54,751 bases of DNA from a virus. Its lineage: Duplodnaviria > Heunggongvirae > Uroviricota > Caudoviricetes. The stretch is taken from IMG/VR virus record IMGVR_UViG_2579779067_000001, one strand, 5' to 3'. The translations under genes were made by a program, and so were the position numbers. Shown in pieces: positions 25,832 to 31,971 of the stretch (position 1 is its first letter; each line of letters begins with the position of its first letter). The notes under the pieces are model-generated. The model saw nothing but the letters and a program-made list of their open reading frames with translations, ran no database searches and was not told the DNA's origin.

Positions 25832-26238
25832 AAATTCGTCAGGCGCAGACCAGCGCAACCTACATCCTGCCGGACCCCGGCGAACTGAATAAACGCGTCC
25901 TGATCCGCCAGCGGGTGGATATGCCCGCGGATAACTTTGGCGTGGAGCCTCAATACCCGGTTGCGTTCCGGGCATGGGCGAAGGTTATCCAGACCAGTGC
26001 CACCACCTGGCAGGAAACCGCGCAGACCGGAGACGCCATCACCCATTACATCACCATTCGCTACCGCCGGGGGATCACTGCTGATTATGAGGTGGTCTGT
26101 GGTGACAGTGTGTACCGCGTGAAACGTCAGCGTGATCTGAACGGAGCGCGGCGCTTTCTGCTGCTGGAGTGTACGGAGCTGGGCGAATTTACGCAGAGTC
26201 ACGGAGGCAACAATGGCGACTTCCTTTTTGCACGTTGA
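25828..26238 (+). CDS. head-tail adaptor / head closure protein
   Basis: 136 aa; position and size. Confidence 0.65.
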   Translation: MKIRQAQTSATYILPDPGELNKRVLIRQRVDMPADNFGVEPQYPVAFRAWAKVIQTSATTWQETAQTGDAITHYITIRYRRGITADYEVVCGDSVYRVKRQRDLNGARRFLLLECTELGEFTQSHGGNNGDFLFAR

Positions 26239-26719
26239 TTTTCAGCAGCCCGCGGAGATGCGCTTTAACCGCGCCCGTGTCCGGCGGGCGTTTGTCACGA
26301 TTGGTCAGCGTCATATGCGTGATGCCCGTCGGCTGGTGATGCGCCGTGCGCGGTCGGCACCGGGTGAAAACCCCGGTTATCAGACCGGACGCCTGGCTCG
26401 TTCGATTGGTTACATGGTACCCAGAGCCAGTAAACATCGCCCTGGTTTTATGGCACGTATAGCCCCTAACCAGCGTAATGGAGAGGGAAACCGCCGTATC
26501 ACCGGTGATTTTTATCCGGCTTTTTTGTTCTATGGCGTGAGGCGAGGGGCAAAGCGTCGTCGCAGCCATCATCGTGGTGCATCCGGTGGCAGCGGCTGGC
26601 GACTGGCTCCACGTAATAACTTCATGGTGGAAACTCTTGAAAAGAACCGCAGCTGGACACGCTATTTTCTGGCGCGGGAATTGCGTAAATCACTGAAGCC
26701 GGAGCGACGACACAGATGA
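26213..26719 (+). CDS. tail component (HK97 gp10-like), basic
   Basis: 168-aa Arg-rich ORF; position. Confidence 0.5.
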   Translation: MATSFLHVDFQQPAEMRFNRARVRRAFVTIGQRHMRDARRLVMRRARSAPGENPGYQTGRLARSIGYMVPRASKHRPGFMARIAPNQRNGEGNRRITGDFYPAFLFYGVRRGAKRRRSHHRGASGGSGWRLAPRNNFMVETLEKNRSWTRYFLARELRKSLKPERRHR

Positions 26720-27284: not shown

Positions 27285-27455
27285 ATGTTTGTCAAACCTG
27301 TTAAAGGGCGGTCAGTTCCTGACCCTGCCCGCGGCGACCTTTTGCCCGCCGAAGGGCGAAATGTTGACGAGAACAACTACTGGCTGCGCCGTGAAGCAGC
27401 GGGTGATATCCGGCGCGTGAATAAAAAGGTGAATACCGATGACGATAAGCTTTAA
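27285..27455 (+). CDS. small conserved Mu-like tail-region protein (about 56 aa)
   Basis: ATG 27285 to TAA 27453-27455; overlaps sheath start; below track cutoff. Confidence 0.4.
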   Translation: MFVKPVKGRSVPDPARGDLLPAEGRNVDENNYWLRREAAGDIRRVNKKVNTDDDKL

Positions 27456-28935
27456 CACCATTCCGTCGAATACGCTGGTTCCGTTGTTTTATGCGGAAAT
27501 GGATAACCAGGCGGCGAATACTGCACAGGACAGCGGAGCATCGCTGCTGATTGGTCATGCCAATAACGGTGCAGAGATTGTTGCCAACAGTCTGGTACTG
27601 ATGCCGTCGGCAGACTATGCACGCCAGATTTGTGGTGCGGGAAGTCAGCTGGCGCGTATGGTCGAGGCTTATCGCCAGACTGACCCGTTTGGCGAGCTGT
27701 ATGTGATTGCCGTTCCTGAATCCACAGGCGCGGCGGCAACGGTTACGCTGACGGTGACCGGGGCGGCAACCGAAACCGGCACGGTGAATGTGTATGTGGG
27801 ACGTACCCGCGTGCAGGCACCGGTGACTAACGGCGATAACGTCACGATGATTGCCAGCAGTATCCAGGATGCCATCAATGCCGTTCCGACCCTGCCGTTT
27901 ACGGCTTCATCTTCGGCAGGCGTGGTCACACTGGCCGCGCGTCATAAGGGGCTTTGCGGGAATGAAATTCCTGTCAGCCTCAATTACTACGGCTTTGGTG
28001 GGGGCGAAGTGCTGCCAGCGGGCGTACAGATTGCCGTGGCGACGGGTACCGCCGGAACGGGTGCTCCGGTTCTCACCGGCGCGGTAGCTGCAATGGCGGA
28101 TGAGCCGTTTGATTATATCGGCCTGCCGTTCAACGACACGGCCTCCGTTAACACGCTGGTGACCGAGATGAACGATACCAGCGGTCGCTGGAGCTATGCG
28201 CGTCAGCTGTATGGTCATGTGTATACGGCAAAGATCGGCACGCTGTCAGAACTGGTGACCGCAGGTGACCAGTTTAACCAGCAGCACATTACCCTGGCGG
28301 GGTACGAAAAAGACACCCAGACGCCTGCCGACGAGTTGGCGGCAAGCCGTACCGCCCGCGCAGCGGTGTTTATCCGCAACGATCCGGCACGTCCCACGCA
28401 GACCGGTGAGCTGGTGGGTATGCTGCCTGCGCCGAAGGGGAAACGGTTCACGATGACCGAACAACAGACCCTGCTGTCTCATGGCGTGGCAACGGCGTAT
28501 GTCGAAAGCGGGGTACTGCGCATTCAGCGTGATGTCACCACGTACAGGAAAAACGCTTACGGGGTTGCGGATAACAGCTACCTCGACAGCGAGACGCTGC
28601 ATACCAGCGCGTATGTACTGCGCAAACTGAAATCCGTCATTACCAGTAAGTACGGGCGTCACAAGCTTGCCAGTGACGGTACCCGCTTTGGTCCCGGTCA
28701 GGCGATTGTCACCCCGGCGGTGATCAAAGGGGAACTGCTGGCAACCTACCGTCAGCTCGAGCGTGCGGGGATCGTGGAAAACTACGAACTGTTCAAGCAG
28801 TACCTGGTTGTGGAGCGTGATGCCAGCGATCCGAACCGCCTGAACACGCTGTTCCCGCCTGACTATGTTAACCAGTTGCGTGTCTTTGCCGTGGTTAACC
28901 AGTTCCGTCTTCAGTATTCAGAGGAGTCTGCATAA
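27439..28935 (+). CDS. tail sheath protein (Mu gpL-like)
   Basis: 498 aa; order sheath-tube-chaperone-tape measure. Confidence 0.85.
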   Translation: MTISFNTIPSNTLVPLFYAEMDNQAANTAQDSGASLLIGHANNGAEIVANSLVLMPSADYARQICGAGSQLARMVEAYRQTDPFGELYVIAVPESTGAAATVTLTVTGAATETGTVNVYVGRTRVQAPVTNGDNVTMIASSIQDAINAVPTLPFTASSSAGVVTLAARHKGLCGNEIPVSLNYYGFGGGEVLPAGVQIAVATGTAGTGAPVLTGAVAAMADEPFDYIGLPFNDTASVNTLVTEMNDTSGRWSYARQLYGHVYTAKIGTLSELVTAGDQFNQQHITLAGYEKDTQTPADELAASRTARAAVFIRNDPARPTQTGELVGMLPAPKGKRFTMTEQQTLLSHGVATAYVESGVLRIQRDVTTYRKNAYGVADNSYLDSETLHTSAYVLRKLKSVITSKYGRHKLASDGTRFGPGQAIVTPAVIKGELLATYRQLERAGIVENYELFKQYLVVERDASDPNRLNTLFPPDYVNQLRVFAVVNQFRLQYSEESA

Positions 28936-29291
28936 TGGCCCGTATCGGGGGAACCTGTTATTTCAAAATTGACGGTCAGCAGCTATCGCTGACCGGTGGC
29001 ATTGAGGTGCCCATGAACAGGACGGTCAATGATGACATCATCGGCCTGGACGGTTCAGTGGACCGCAAGGAAACTCACCGTGCGCCTTATGTCAAAGGGA
29101 CCTTCAAGGTGCCGAAGAATTTTCCGGTGGGCAAAATCACCTCGTCTGATGAGATGACAATCACTGCCGAGCTGGCGAACGGTCAGGTCTATGTACTGTC
29201 GTCTGCCTGGCTGCACGGCGAAGCGAACCATAATGCCGAAGAAGGCACGGTTGATCTTGAGTTCCACGGTGAAGAAGGGGATTACCAGTAA
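28935..29291 (+). CDS. tail tube protein
   Basis: 118 aa after sheath. Confidence 0.8.
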   Translation: MARIGGTCYFKIDGQQLSLTGGIEVPMNRTVNDDIIGLDGSVDRKETHRAPYVKGTFKVPKNFPVGKITSSDEMTITAELANGQVYVLSSAWLHGEANHNAEEGTVDLEFHGEEGDYQ

Positions 29292-29560
29292 TGAAAGAGC
29301 TTGAGTTAAAGAAACCGATTACTGCGCATGGCGAGACACTCTCCGTACTGGAGTTTGATGAGCCCACCGGGAAGGATGTCCGCGAGCTGGGGTATCCCTA
29401 CCAGATGAATCAGGATGAGTCCGTCAGACTTCTGGCGCATGTGGTGTCGAAATACATTGTGCGGCTGGCGAAAGTGCCGCAAAGCTCTGTCGACCAGATG
29501 TCTCCGGCAGACCTGAATGCAGCGGCGTGGCTTGTGGCCGGTTTTTTCCTCCAGGCCTGA
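29291..29560 (+). CDS. tail assembly chaperone (frame 0 product)
   Basis: 89 aa; overlapping -1 frame ORF 29527..29709 with slippery site. Confidence 0.7.
   Translation: MKELELKKPITAHGETLSVLEFDEPTGKDVRELGYPYQMNQDESVRLLAHVVSKYIVRLAKVPQSSVDQMSPADLNAAAWLVAGFFLQA
29542..29548 (+). other. programmed -1 ribosomal frameshift slippery heptamer T_TTT_TTC
   Basis: in-frame GGT TTT TTC at the end of chaperone ORF; -1 frame continues to 29709. Confidence 0.65.
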
Positions 29561-29701
29561 CGGCTGAATACCTCACTGATCGCTTCTTTGACTGCGCCAG
29601 CTACTGGCGCATTAATCCTTTCGAATTGCTGAATATGTCGATCAGTGAAATTCCCTTACTGGTCAGTCAGGCAAACAGGATAGAGCAGGAGAAACGCACA
29701 C

Positions 29702-31534
29702 ATGGCTGAATTTGAGCTTAAGGCGTTGATCACCGGTGTCGACAGGCTTTCTCCCGCGCTGTCGAAAATGCAAAAGAAAATCCGGGGATTTAAACGCCAG
29801 GCGGAAGAAGCGTCACAGGGTGGGCTGGCGCTTGGTGGCGGACTGGCAGCGGGTCTGACGCTTTCCCTGAAATCTTATGCCGATCAGGAAAACGCCGCCA
29901 CCGGGCTGAAAGTCGCCATGATGGATGCGAACGGCGAGGTTGGAAAGAGCTTTCAGGACATCAATAAACTGGCTATTGGCCTGGGTAACCAGCTACCCGG
30001 TACAACGGCTGATTTCCAGAACATGATGCAGATGCTGGTGCGTCAGGGGATCCCGGCAGAAAACATTCTTGGCGGTGTGGGTAAAGCGACAGCTTATCTT
30101 GCGGTACAACTGAAAAAAACACCGGAAGCGGCTGCCGAGTTTGCCGCAAAGATGCAGGATGCTACCGGAACGGCGTCAGAAGACATGATGGGGCTGTTCG
30201 ACACTATCCAGAAGGCGTTTTATCTGGGCGTTGACGATACCAACATGTTGTCCTTCTTCACTAAAACCAGCTCTGTTCTGAAGATGGTGAACAAGGACGG
30301 TCTTCAGGCTGCACAGAGCCTTGCCCCCATCAGCGTCATGATGGATCAGATGGGGATGAACGGGGAGTCGGCAGGTAACGCCCTGCGAAAAGTTATCCAG
30401 TCCGGATTAAGCGTTAAGAAAATCAGGGACGTCAATAAAATCATGGCCCGCCAGAAACTCGGGGTACAGCTCGATTTTACTGACGGCAAAGGGAGTTTTG
30501 GCGGTCTTGATAACATGTTCAGGCAACTGGCAAAGCTGCGACAACTGACCGACGTTAAACGAACTGGTGTACTTAAGGCAATATTTGGTGATGATGCCGA
30601 AACCCTTCAGGTGGTCAATGCACTAATCGATAAAGGAAAGGATGGCTACGATCAGATCCAGCAGAAGATGAATAAACAGGCCAGCCTGAATAAACGTGTT
30701 CAGGCACAGCTTGGTACGCTGTCCAACCTGTGGGAGGCAATGACAGGGACCGCAACTAACGGCCTTGCGGCTATTGGCGGTGCATTTTCTGGTGACGCTA
30801 AAAATATCACGCAATGGCTGGGGGAGTTGGGGGAGAAATTCACGAAGTTTGCGGATGAAAATCCCCGGGTTATTCGCGGCGTCGTCGGGCTTGCTGCCGG
30901 TCTTGCGATTCTGAAACTGGGATTGATGGGCGTTGGCGGTGCCATCAGTATTGTCAGCAGGATCATGTCGATGACGCCGATTGGCATGATTGCGACGGCG
31001 ATAGCCCTGGCTGCGGGATTAATTATCACTAACTGGGATGTTGTCGGACCTTATTTTAAGAAACTCTGGGAAACCATTGGTCCTTATTTTGAGGCTGGCT
31101 GGGAACTCCTTAAGAAAGTTTTTGCCTGGTCGCCGCTGGGGATGGTGATCAATAACTGGGGGCCGGTTGTTAAGTGGTTTCAGGATATGTGGGACAAGCT
31201 GAAGCCAATTATTGAGTGGTTTACCGACAGTTCCGGTGACACGGTCGATGCCATTAACTCTGCGCAGTGGGGCGCGGGTGCTTATGATGCTTATGGGACG
31301 GGAATACCGGCGCGGGGATACACACCTTATCCGGCGGTGGATCTGGCTCAGTCAAACAACGCCTCCGATGCCACAGCCCCGAATCCCTTCATGATTAACA
31401 AAGCTTCTGCGCCAAAAGTTGATGGTGAGATCAAGGTCTCTTTTGTGAATTCGCCTCCGGGTATGCGGGTTATGGAAACACGTTCTAGTGACATTGATAT
31501 TAATCACGATGTTGGGTACACCAGATTTAGGTAA
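29702..31534 (+). CDS. tail tape measure protein
   Basis: 610 aa; Ala/Gly-rich with hydrophobic segments; follows chaperone. Confidence 0.85.
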   Translation: MAEFELKALITGVDRLSPALSKMQKKIRGFKRQAEEASQGGLALGGGLAAGLTLSLKSYADQENAATGLKVAMMDANGEVGKSFQDINKLAIGLGNQLPGTTADFQNMMQMLVRQGIPAENILGGVGKATAYLAVQLKKTPEAAAEFAAKMQDATGTASEDMMGLFDTIQKAFYLGVDDTNMLSFFTKTSSVLKMVNKDGLQAAQSLAPISVMMDQMGMNGESAGNALRKVIQSGLSVKKIRDVNKIMARQKLGVQLDFTDGKGSFGGLDNMFRQLAKLRQLTDVKRTGVLKAIFGDDAETLQVVNALIDKGKDGYDQIQQKMNKQASLNKRVQAQLGTLSNLWEAMTGTATNGLAAIGGAFSGDAKNITQWLGELGEKFTKFADENPRVIRGVVGLAAGLAILKLGLMGVGGAISIVSRIMSMTPIGMIATAIALAAGLIITNWDVVGPYFKKLWETIGPYFEAGWELLKKVFAWSPLGMVINNWGPVVKWFQDMWDKLKPIIEWFTDSSGDTVDAINSAQWGAGAYDAYGTGIPARGYTPYPAVDLAQSNNASDATAPNPFMINKASAPKVDGEIKVSFVNSPPGMRVMETRSSDIDINHDVGYTRFR

Positions 31535-31566: not shown

Positions 31567-31971
31567 TTACTGTGCGAACACGCAATTTCGGCCTGATGGG
31601 GAGCCGACAATTCTGGACATTTTTTCGCAAATAACAGTTACCTGTTCTCCTTTTTTAAGAGCAGCAGCTGTTGATTTTTCAGAGTCTTGCATCTCCATTC
31701 TTGCTGGCATGAATTCATTTTCAGTTCTGAATTTAATAATTATAGAGTCAGTAAAGTCCTTATCAATGGATTGTACGATACCTCTAACGGCGATTAATTT
31801 ACCTTTTAACTGTTCATCGGTAGCGACTTCATTTTCTTCATACTCTTTAAACAGCTGTCGAGCAGTAGTGTTGTAGATTTCTTTTTGCGGTGCCGCAGCT
31901 TCCGTATCGGATGAGTATGAAGAATTAGAGCCTTTATCGTTATTGCCTGCAAAATATCCAATAATCACCAA
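31567..31971 (-). CDS. antisense moron: putative secreted/membrane-anchored protein
   Basis: 134-aa track ORF (TTG start); frame stays open upstream to give KKLLKWILYIFIGLVIIGYFAG signal-anchor; AAGGTG SD 5 nt before an ATA codon at 32013-32011; AT-rich. Confidence 0.5.
   Translation of the reverse strand: MVIIGYFAGNNDKGSNSSYSSDTEAAAPQKEIYNTTARQLFKEYEENEVATDEQLKGKLIAVRGIVQSIDKDFTDSIIIKFRTENEFMPARMEMQDSEKSTAAALKKGEQVTVICEKMSRIVGSPSGRNCVFAQ

What the first reader, a model, noticed from the sequence alone, without database searches (positions are those of the whole stretch)
29291..29709. Programmed -1 frameshift site in the tail assembly chaperone
The chaperone ORF (29291..29560) contains GGT TTT TTC, giving the heptamer T_TTT_TTC at 29542-29548 about 4 codons before its stop. 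The overlapping -1 frame ORF (29527..29709) continues from exactly this point (...AGFF then PPGLTAEY...). This is the conserved G/GT-type arrangement upstream of the tape measure gene.
Basis: partly seen in the sequence, partly recalled or inferred. Interest (0 to 1): 0.4.

Follow-up and report, generated by a model that had tools for sequence, protein, structure and literature searches.

The report
Tail chaperone programmed -1 frameshift site
This is the well-known ribosomal slip site that lets a phage make a short and a long tail-assembly chaperone from one gene start, here in an SfV-like E. coli/Shigella prophage: real and strongly conserved, but ordinary, and missing from the public annotations I inspected.

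Summary
The 89-codon ORF 29291-29560 (Pfam PF10109, the P2 gpE / Mu gp41 chaperone family) lies between the tail tube gene and the tape measure gene. It carries one in-frame slippery heptamer, T_TTT_TTC, at 29542-29548. A -1 slip there gives a 139-aa fusion (...AGFF|PPGLTAEY...) that ends at 29709 and overlaps the tape measure start at 29702.

One heptamer alone is not improbable (0.19 expected in the overlap). The comparative evidence is what decides:
- In 21 distinct relatives, down to about 40% protein identity, the bases NNT TTT TTY are invariant at the homologous position.
- The 50-59-aa -1 extension is conserved as protein. Substitutions concentrate at its third codon positions.
- In 15 of 24 relatives the -1 frame has no start codon upstream of the heptamer, and three have none at all.
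- In the window, no candidate start in that frame has a Shine-Dalgarno sequence.

Phage P2 E/E+E', the characterised case in the same Pfam family, slips at GGTTTTTTG at the same domain boundary.

I found no conserved stimulatory RNA structure. None of the ten annotated public records I opened for this lineage marks the frameshift.

Verdict: a genuine programmed -1 frameshift and a routine member of a known class. Low novelty.

The parts
27439..28935 (+). Tail sheath gene (context)
   Evidence: PF04984 and PF17482; phrog_165 tail sheath
28935..29291 (+). Tail tube gene. Its stop overlaps the chaperone start (TAATG).
   Evidence: PF10618 at E 9.5e-33; phrog_185
29291..29560 (+). Short chaperone ORF (G/E-type), 89 aa, 9.9 kDa; the zero-frame product
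   Evidence: PF10109 Phage_TAC_7 at E 1.9e-16, residues 4-86 covering profile positions 2-78 of 79. Anti-SD pairing -7.9 kcal/mol upstream of the ATG. Mass.
29542..29548 (+). Slippery heptamer T_TTT_TTC, the proposed site of tandem -1 tRNA-Phe slippage
   Evidence: In phase and unique in the ORF. NNT TTT TTY is invariant in 21 of 21 distinct relatives. GGTTTTTTC is present in 77 of 80 IMG/VR contigs.
29548..29709 (+). -1 frame extension (T/E'-type), 53 aa plus stop. The fusion CDS is join(29291..29548, 29548..29709), 139 aa, 15.8 kDa.
   Evidence: Translation. Conserved as protein in relatives: FDCAxYWRINP...QANRI. Pairwise differences at codon positions 1/2/3 are 609/383/1137, and 49% of differing codon pairs are synonymous in this frame against 9-11% in the other two. 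Matches phrog_32181 'unknown function' at E 4.7e-40.
29554..29565 (+). Weak 4-bp hairpin, 5 nt 3' of the heptamer; probably not functional
   Evidence: Predicted. Only 66% of cells are paired across relatives and there is no covariation. The 60 nt downstream of the heptamer fold no better than shuffles (z = +0.15).
29593..29611 (+). 8-bp GC-rich hairpin UGCGCCAG-CUA-CUGGCGCA, 44 nt 3' of the heptamer; role unknown
   Evidence: Predicted. Four degenerate codons in it keep an invariant third base in 11 near-clade sequences. No compensatory changes were seen, and it is broken in more distant relatives.
29687..29691 (+). AGGAG Shine-Dalgarno of the tape measure gene, embedded in the extension's coding sequence
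   Evidence: Sequence. Anti-SD pairing -7.4 kcal/mol.
29702..31534 (+). Tape measure gene. Its start overlaps the end of the extension by 8 nt (ATGGCTGA).
   Evidence: PF10145 at E 2.4e-26; phrog_28 and phrog_17727. P2 shows the same 8-nt overlap of E+E' with T.

Best explanation

Proposed mechanism:
1. Ribosomes start at ATG 29291. Most of them terminate at TGA 29558 and make the 89-aa chaperone.
2. A minority have tRNA-Phe in both the P site (UUU 29543-45) and the A site (UUC 29546-48). These slip back one base onto UUU UUU (29542-47).
3. They then read CCU CCA GGC... in the -1 frame, making a 139-aa fusion that ends at 29709, just inside the tape measure gene.

By analogy with lambda gpG/gpGT and P2 gpE/gpE+E', the shared N-terminal domain would coat the tape measure protein, and the extension on the rare long form would recruit the tube protein. 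A fixed short:long ratio would then guide tail assembly, with neither protein ending up in the virion.

What is shown here: the anatomy, the family membership of the N-terminal domain, nucleotide-level conservation of the slip site, purifying selection on the -1 extension, and the lack of an independent start.

What is inferred: that slippage happens on the ribosome, its efficiency, and the assembly role.
For: - Anatomy is confirmed.
- Gene order is sheath, tube, chaperone (PF10109), tape measure (PF10145).
- The region is 98.6% identical to phage SfV.
- 20 genome loci at 40-100% protein identity, plus ST64B, phiP27, SfIV, F1055 and AH07, all carry T_TTT_TTC or T_TTT_TTT at the homologous position. 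The distance to the zero-frame stop varies from 9 to 63 nt. All have a 50-59-aa -1 extension that ends at the tape measure start.
- Wobble bases are fixed in 21 of 21 distinct relatives: the codon before the run always ends in T even when it changes from Gly to Asn or Arg, and the first Phe codon is always TTT. Elsewhere in the same genes TTT:TTC is 11:13 and GGT is 38 of 107 Gly codons.
- The region outside both gene overlaps evolves as coding in the -1 frame. Pairwise differences at codon positions 1/2/3 are 609/383/1137, and 49% of differing codon pairs are synonymous, against 9-11% in the other frames. That frame has no stops, while the other frames have 1-6.
- In 15 of 24 relatives (11 of 19, 4 of 5) there is no ATG, GTG or TTG in the -1 frame upstream of the heptamer. 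Three have none anywhere in that ORF.
- In the window, the candidate -1 frame starts pair with the anti-SD at +0.4, -1.5 and +0.1 kcal/mol. The tube, chaperone and tape measure starts give -7.4 to -8.6.
- P2 E/E+E' is annotated with a -1 frameshift at GGTTTTTTG, which lies at the end of its PF10109 domain as here. That case is described as a -1 shift producing E and E+E' in PMC3091744.
- U_UUU_UUC belongs to the efficient H_HHU_UUY class of heptamers in E. coli (PMC4066793).
Against: - There are no protein, ribosome-profiling or reporter data, so slippage itself is inferred.
- I found no conserved stimulator. The 60 nt downstream fold no better than shuffles (z = +0.15), and the candidate hairpins show no covariation.
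- No conserved SD-like sequence is apparent by eye in the 40 nt upstream of the heptamer (context printed). This was not scored.
- In a reporter, bare U_UUU_UUC shifted only 0.12%. It reached 0.9-7.6% only with IS911 or IS3 stimulators (PMC4066793 Table S3).
- The extension does not match Pfam PF06528 (the P2 E' domain) at E <= 1. Its profile similarity to P2 E' is weak: hhalign E 0.0038, probability 8.7%.
- Rare alleles lack the full heptamer: 3 of 80 IMG/VR contigs and a T4C3 allele.
Confidence: 0.9

Rival explanations
1. The downstream ORF is a separate small gene, translated from its own start (GTG 29527, or internal TTG 29626 or ATG 29635). The heptamer would then be incidental.
For: - A GTG lies in the -1 frame 15 nt upstream of the heptamer.
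- Some annotations call this ORF a separate hypothetical protein: ON470584.1 and one PGAP record.
- It has its own PHROG, phrog_32181.
Against: - None of the three candidate starts has a Shine-Dalgarno sequence (+0.4, -1.5 and +0.1 kcal/mol).
- 15 of 24 relatives have no start codon in that frame upstream of the heptamer, and three have none at all. The peptide is conserved in all of them.
- This model does not explain the invariance of NNT TTT TTY at synonymous positions.
Confidence: 0.03
2. The fusion is made by transcriptional slippage. RNA polymerase would drop one U (or add two) in the T6 run, and ordinary translation of the edited mRNA would give the long form.
For: - The site is a homopolymer run.
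- Homopolymer runs are reported to cause indels in mRNA (PMC4066793).
- Conservation of the T run cannot by itself separate the two mechanisms.
Against: - The run is only 6-7 T in every relative and never longer.
- From my own knowledge, marked as such, efficient bacterial transcriptional slippage needs runs of about 8-9 or more.
- The run always sits in the exact X_XXY_YYZ phase, and the same GGTTTTTT context in P2 is attributed to translational frameshifting.
Confidence: 0.04
3. There is no recoding. The -1 ORF is an untranslated overlap or relic, and the heptamer is chance.
For: - One in-frame heptamer in a 46-codon overlap is expected 0.19 times by chance.
- None of the ten annotated public records I opened for this lineage marks a frameshift.
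Against: - The -1 frame shows a protein-coding substitution pattern and has no stops in any relative.
- The peptide motif is conserved down to about 40% identity.
- The heptamer is invariant.
- The architecture matches P2 E/E+E'.
Confidence: 0.02

Closest known systems
Bacteriophage P2 gpE / gpE+E' (-1 frameshift at T_TTT_TTG in the FETUD tail operon; Christie et al. 2002, cited in PMC3091744)
   Same: - Same Pfam family for the N-terminal domain (PF10109).
- Same position, between the tube gene and the tape measure gene.
- Same local sequence GGTTTTTT at the end of the PF10109 domain.
- Similar sizes: 89 and 139 aa here, 91 and 142 aa in P2.
- Same 8-nt overlap of the extension with the tape measure start.
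- No stimulatory hairpin is reported for P2 (PMC3091744), and none was found here.
   Different: - The last base of the heptamer is C here and G in P2.
- The extension is not a detectable PF06528 (P2 GpE) member and resembles P2 E' only weakly (BLASTP E 0.099).
- The rest of the tail is Mu-like, not P2-like.
Bacteriophage lambda gpG / gpGT (-1 frameshift at G_GGA_AAG; Levin et al. 1993; Xu, Hendrix and Duda 2004, 2013, 2014)
   Same: - The same logic: two proteins share an N-terminus, are made at a fixed ratio, and are encoded just upstream of the tape measure gene.
- Function is described in PMC5009743: G binds the tape measure, T binds the major tail subunit, and neither is in virions.
   Different: - Lambda has a non-contractile tail.
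- The heptamer is different.
- I tested no sequence relationship to lambda gpG; the window protein belongs to PF10109.
Bacteriophage Mu gp41 tail assembly chaperone (-2 frameshift; Xu et al. 2004, as cited in PMC5009743)
   Same: - The neighbouring genes are Mu-type: sheath, tube, DNA-circulation (gpN-like) and gpP-like baseplate genes.
- Mu gp41 also touches PF10109.
   Different: - Mu's extension lies in the -2/+1 frame, after a G-rich stretch (CGG GGG CGA) near the end of gp41, and is reported as a -2 shift.
- Here the extension is in the -1 frame, after a T run.

Membership tests
Conserved tail-assembly-chaperone frameshift of long-tailed dsDNA phages (G/GT type) | Two overlapping ORFs located between the major tail/tube gene and the tape measure gene | tested here: met
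   Tube 28935-29291, chaperone 29291-29560, -1 ORF to 29709, tape measure 29702-31534
Conserved tail-assembly-chaperone frameshift of long-tailed dsDNA phages (G/GT type) | A slippery sequence in the correct phase inside the overlap of the two frames | tested here: met
   T_TTT_TTC at 29542-29548; the -1 frame is open from 29419
Conserved tail-assembly-chaperone frameshift of long-tailed dsDNA phages (G/GT type) | The downstream ORF lacks its own translation start | tested here: met
   No SD before any candidate start. No start codon in that frame upstream of the heptamer in 15 of 24 relatives.
Conserved tail-assembly-chaperone frameshift of long-tailed dsDNA phages (G/GT type) | The slip site and the extension are conserved among relatives | tested here: met
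   Heptamer kept in 21 of 21 distinct relatives. The extension is under purifying selection.
Conserved tail-assembly-chaperone frameshift of long-tailed dsDNA phages (G/GT type) | Both the short and the frameshifted long protein are made, and both are needed for tail assembly | not testable with these tools
   Needs protein detection and genetics
Pfam PF10109 Phage_TAC_7 (P2 gpE, Mu gp41) | Score above the curated gathering cut-off (25 bits) | tested here: met
   60.3 bits, E 1.9e-16, residues 4-86. P2 E+E' scores 47.8 bits over residues 7-85.
Pfam PF06528 Phage_P2_GpE (the E' extension of P2) | The extension matches the profile | tested here: not met
   No hit at E <= 1 for the extension or the fusion. 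P2 E+E' hits at 1.2e-21. The hhalign match to P2 E' is weak: E 0.0038, probability 8.7%.
Mu-type -2 frameshift | The extension lies in the -2/+1 frame relative to the chaperone | tested here: not met
   The extension is in the -1 frame here. Mu's is in the -2/+1 frame.
Stimulated -1 frameshift signals of the dnaX / IS3 / IS911 type | Heptamer plus an upstream SD-like element and/or a downstream hairpin or pseudoknot 5-9 nt away | tested here: not met
   The heptamer is present. The 60 nt downstream are not more structured than shuffles, and the candidate hairpins show no covariation. No conserved upstream SD-like sequence is apparent by eye in the context printed; this was not scored. No Rfam match.

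The most novel reading that the evidence does not exclude
The recoding site in this prophage lineage may be evolutionarily plastic and unconventional.

1. A T4C3 allele (GGTTTTCCCTCC) is found in some E. coli genomes that are about 97% identical to the window here. It places the same extension in the +1 frame. It could be expressed by a +1 slip at UUU_C or CCC_U, giving ...AGFPPSLTAEY. Near-identical phages would then switch the direction of frameshifting.
2. The -1 allele has no canonical stimulator. It might instead depend on the hairpin 44 nt downstream, whose synonymous sites are conserved.
Probability: 0.1. Interest if true: 0.45.

Novelty: new member of a known kind. Interest (0 to 1): 0.15.

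Why it matters
Practically, it corrects annotation.
- This prophage type occurs in 919 of 5,426 complete E. coli genomes, and in SfV, SfI, SfII, SfIV, ST64B and phiP27.
- None of the ten annotated public records I opened for this lineage marks the frameshift. The extension is either left unannotated or called a 'hypothetical protein'. It also forms a PHROG of 'unknown function'.

Biologically it adds one more clean example of the conserved chaperone frameshift. It shows that Mu-type tails can use the P2-type T-run -1 site rather than Mu's own -2 site. It does not open a new question.

Tried and rejected
- **Downstream stimulatory structure.** I folded 92 nt and 60 nt downstream in the window and in 13 relatives including P2. 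I also ran a consensus fold and pair counts. Nothing was conserved or covarying. Individual relatives have their own local hairpins, for example a 7-8-bp stem starting 1-2 nt after the heptamer in L020 and a stem 8 nt after it in L025. There is no common element.
- **Rfam** search of 29200-29900 gave only a sub-threshold CRISPR-repeat hit.
- **NCBIfam** gave no family for the fusion or for P2 E+E'.
- **Homology of the extension to P2 E'.** The alignment is suggestive, with a shared W/P/EL pattern, but statistically weak. I do not claim it.
- **Solved structures.** The only hits were light-harvesting complex proteins, matching a short W..G..PP.LT.EY..DR.FD motif that spans the junction. I judge these spurious.
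- **Naturally fused proteins.** P0001-P0006 from the protein search looked like natural fusions, but they are singleton assemblies with scrambled segments around the junction. I read them as assembly errors, not genuine fusions.
- **Structure prediction.** The single-sequence model of the fusion had mean pLDDT 46 and is unusable.
- **Literature.** I could not open Xu et al. 2004, Christie et al. 2002 or Allison et al. 2002. I therefore could not check whether SfV is already on a published list of frameshifting phages. The SfI and SfIV genome papers do not contain the phrase 'translational frameshift'.
Full report
**What is in the sequence.** The window around the finding is a phage tail operon on the + strand.
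- The genes in order are: tail sheath 27439-28935 (PF04984, PF17482); tail tube 28935-29291 (PF10618); a small ORF 29291-29560; a tape measure gene 29702-31534 (PF10145); then Mu-type DNA-circulation and gpP-like baseplate genes.
- The small ORF encodes 89 aa and matches Pfam PF10109, 'Phage tail assembly chaperone proteins, E, or 41 or 14'. The match is E 1.9e-16, with residues 4-86 covering profile positions 2-78 of 79.
- The region is 98.6% identical to Shigella phage SfV, and similar to SfI, SfII and several E. coli phages.
- The chaperone segment 29291-29709 is found in 919 of 5,426 complete E. coli genomes.

**Checking the observation.**
- The zero-frame codons are GGT TTT TTC CTC CAG GCC TGA. 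T_TTT_TTC at 29542-29548 is therefore in the X_XXY_YYZ phase, three sense codons before the stop.
- It is the only canonical heptamer in the ORF.
- The -1 frame is open from 29419 to the TGA at 29707-29709.
- Slipping on the heptamer gives ...AAWLVAGFF|PPGLTAEYLTDRFFDCASYWRINPFELL..., 139 aa and 15.8 kDa, against 9.9 kDa for the short form.
- The extension ends 8 nt inside the tape measure gene (ATGGCTGA). The tape measure's AGGAG ribosome-binding site lies within the extension.

**Is it more than chance?** A heptamer alone is weak evidence.
- In the window's 59 long ORFs there are 62 in-frame XXXYYYZ heptamers in 14,882 codons. That predicts 0.19 in the 46-codon overlap.
- None of those 62 opens onto a -1 frame that runs 30 or more codons beyond the zero-frame stop.

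**Comparative evidence.** This is what makes the case.
- *Slip site.* I collected 20 genome loci spanning 40-100% protein identity, from Edwardsiella, Buttiauxella, Citrobacter, Pantoea, Kosakonia and Derxia among others. I added the phages ST64B, phiP27, SfIV, F1055 and AH07. Every one carries T_TTT_TTC or T_TTT_TTT at the homologous Phe-Phe position. The distance to the zero-frame stop varies from 9 to 63 nt. So the heptamer is the conserved feature, not the stop.
- *Synonymous positions.* In 21 distinct sequences the pattern NNT TTT TTY never varies. This holds even where the preceding codon changes from Gly to Asn or Arg. Elsewhere in the same genes TTT:TTC is 11:13, and GGT is 38 of 107 Gly codons. 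In the DNA alignment, GGTTTTTT is the longest invariant run.
- *Extension.* It is 50-59 aa long and conserved as protein, with the motif FDCAxYWRINP...QANRI. I analysed the part that overlaps neither gene in 11 near-clade sequences. Pairwise differences at codon positions 1/2/3 of the -1 frame are 609/383/1137. Of differing codon pairs, 49% are synonymous in that frame, against 9-11% in the other two. The -1 frame has no stops, while the other frames have 1-6.
- *No independent start.* In 15 of 24 relatives the -1 frame has no ATG, GTG or TTG between its upstream stop and the heptamer. That is 11 of 19 and 4 of 5. Three relatives have none anywhere in that ORF. In the window, the possible starts GTG 29527, TTG 29626 and ATG 29635 pair with the anti-Shine-Dalgarno at +0.4, -1.5 and +0.1 kcal/mol. 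The tube, chaperone and tape measure starts give -8.6, -7.9 and -7.4.
- *Viral contigs.* Of 80 IMG/VR contigs (35 distinct DNA sequences), 77 keep GGTTTTTTC.

**Mechanism.** The best-supported reading is tandem -1 slippage of the two tRNA-Phe from UUU UUC onto UUU UUU, followed by decoding of CCU CCA GGC.
- U_UUU_UUC belongs to the H_HHU_UUY class, which Sharma et al. rank among the most efficient heptamers in E. coli (PMC4066793).
- In their reporter the bare motif gave only 0.12%. It rose to 0.9% with the IS911 stimulator and 7.6% with the IS3 stimulator (Table S3).
- I found no stimulator here. The 60 nt downstream fold no better than shuffles (z = +0.15). The same is true of P2 (z = -0.01) and of most relatives. 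A 4-bp hairpin 5 nt downstream is paired in only 66% of cells. Neither candidate helix shows covariation. Rfam finds nothing. No conserved SD-like sequence is apparent by eye upstream of the heptamer, though I did not score this.
- This matches what is reported for P2 and its relatives (PMC3091744). The efficiency of the shift therefore remains unknown.
- The assembly role is inferred from lambda: the shared N-terminal domain binds the tape measure, the extension recruits the tube subunit, and neither protein is in the virion (PMC5009743). It was not tested here.
- This has a practical consequence.

**Comparison with known systems.** The closest characterised case is P2 gpE/gpE+E'.
- The RefSeq record for P2 annotates a -1 frameshift.
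- The P2 site is GTC GGT TTT TTG, the same GGTTTTTT context. It lies at residues 84-85, the end of its PF10109 match (residues 7-85). In the window the site is at residues 85-86, the end of a match covering residues 4-86.
- Product sizes are alike: 91 and 142 aa in P2, 89 and 139 aa here. The 8-nt overlap with the tape measure gene is also the same.
- The extensions differ. P2 E' is Pfam PF06528, which the window's extension does not match. Profile similarity is weak.
- Mu supplies the closest relatives of the neighbouring tail genes. Its extension lies in the -2/+1 frame, after a G-rich stretch near the end of gp41, and Mu is reported to use -2 frameshifting (PMC5009743).
- This lineage therefore combines a Mu-type tail with a P2-type slip site.

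**Rival explanations.** Three were considered.
- Independent initiation of the second ORF is contradicted by the missing starts and ribosome-binding sites.
- Transcriptional slippage cannot be excluded by sequence alone. It is unlikely for a run of only 6-7 T.
- A non-expressed overlap is contradicted by the coding-type substitution pattern.

**Novelty.** The phenomenon is textbook. The family, PF10109, includes the experimentally studied P2 case.
- What is new is only that none of the ten annotated records I opened for this lineage marks the frameshift. These are SfV (GenBank and RefSeq), vB_EcoM-689R6, two PGAP-annotated E. coli genomes, ST64B, phiP27, SfIV, F1055 and AH07. In them the extension is unannotated or 'hypothetical'. 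PHROGs lists it as a family of unknown function.
- I could not open Xu et al. 2004, so I could not check whether SfV is already on their list.
- My verdict is a genuine, ordinary programmed -1 frameshift.

**Side observations.**
- *T4C3 allele.* An allele with GGTTTTCCCTCC in place of GGTTTTTTCCTCC puts the extension in the +1 frame. It occurs in 3 complete E. coli genomes. Its exact protein products are each seen on 1,000 or more contigs. Related protein variants show the same junction in other sequence backgrounds. These are either defective prophages or users of a +1 slip.
- *Downstream hairpin.* An 8-bp hairpin at 29593-29611 has four degenerate codons whose third base is invariant across the 11 near-clade sequences. 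Elsewhere in the extension, outside the gene overlaps, nearly all third positions vary. A rough clustering estimate gives p about 0.03 after correcting for position. There is no covariation, and the hairpin lies too far from the slip site to be a canonical stimulator.
- *Inserted gene.* A low-GC, opposite-strand gene at 31567-31971 (PF12869, tRNA_anti-like OB fold) sits between the tape measure and baseplate genes. SfV has only a 45-nt gap there.

Noticed in passing
window 31567-31971 (- strand): A 134-aa ORF with a tRNA_anti-like OB fold (PF12869, E 1.4e-16). It sits in a 33-42% GC island on the opposite strand, between the tape measure gene (ends 31534) and the DNA-circulation/baseplate hub gene (starts 32076). 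SfV has only a 45-nt gap at this point, so it looks like an accessory gene ('moron') inserted into the tail operon.
   Followed up: partly
L005:1440-1476 (E. coli JNEC-KY176); homologous to window 29536-29560: An allele GGTTTTCCCTCC (T4C3) replaces GGTTTTTTCCTCC, which puts the conserved extension in the +1 frame of the chaperone. It is present in 3 complete E. coli genomes. Its exact 91-aa and 63-aa products are each recorded on 1,000 or more contigs, and related protein variants show the same junction in other sequence backgrounds. These are either defective prophages or a switch to +1 slippage at UUU_C or CCC_U.
   Followed up: partly
window 29593-29611: A GC-rich 8-bp hairpin UGCGCCAG-CUA-CUGGCGCA, 44 nt downstream of the slip site. 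The codons TGC, GCC, TAC and CGC keep invariant third bases in 11 near-clade sequences, while nearly all other third positions of the extension outside the gene overlaps vary. There are no compensatory changes, and it is broken in distant relatives. Its role is unknown.
   Followed up: partly
window 29527-29709: The -1 frame ORF matches phrog_32181 ('unknown function', E 4.7e-40), and some records annotate it as a stand-alone hypothetical protein. That PHROG appears to be the frameshift extension miscalled as a separate gene.
   Followed up: yes
L032:2553-3131 (phage Mu gp41 and downstream): In Mu the equivalent extension (DIEKAATAIGVILKSGPEW...) lies in the -2/+1 frame, after a G-rich stretch CGG GGG CGA near the end of gp41. 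This agrees with the -2 frameshift reported in the literature. The RefSeq record annotates only gp41.
   Followed up: partly
L034-L113 (IMG/VR contigs), position about 947-964: Three of 80 contigs carry variants of the run: two with GGGTTTTTC and one with GGGTTTTTTCTCC. These lack the full T_TTT_TTC heptamer but keep a U_UUY tetramer. I did not resolve whether they are real variants or sequencing errors.
   Followed up: no
window 26521-26527: An in-frame T_TTT_TTG heptamer inside ORF 26213-26719, 65 codons before its stop. No long -1 extension follows it, so it is probably incidental.
   Followed up: no
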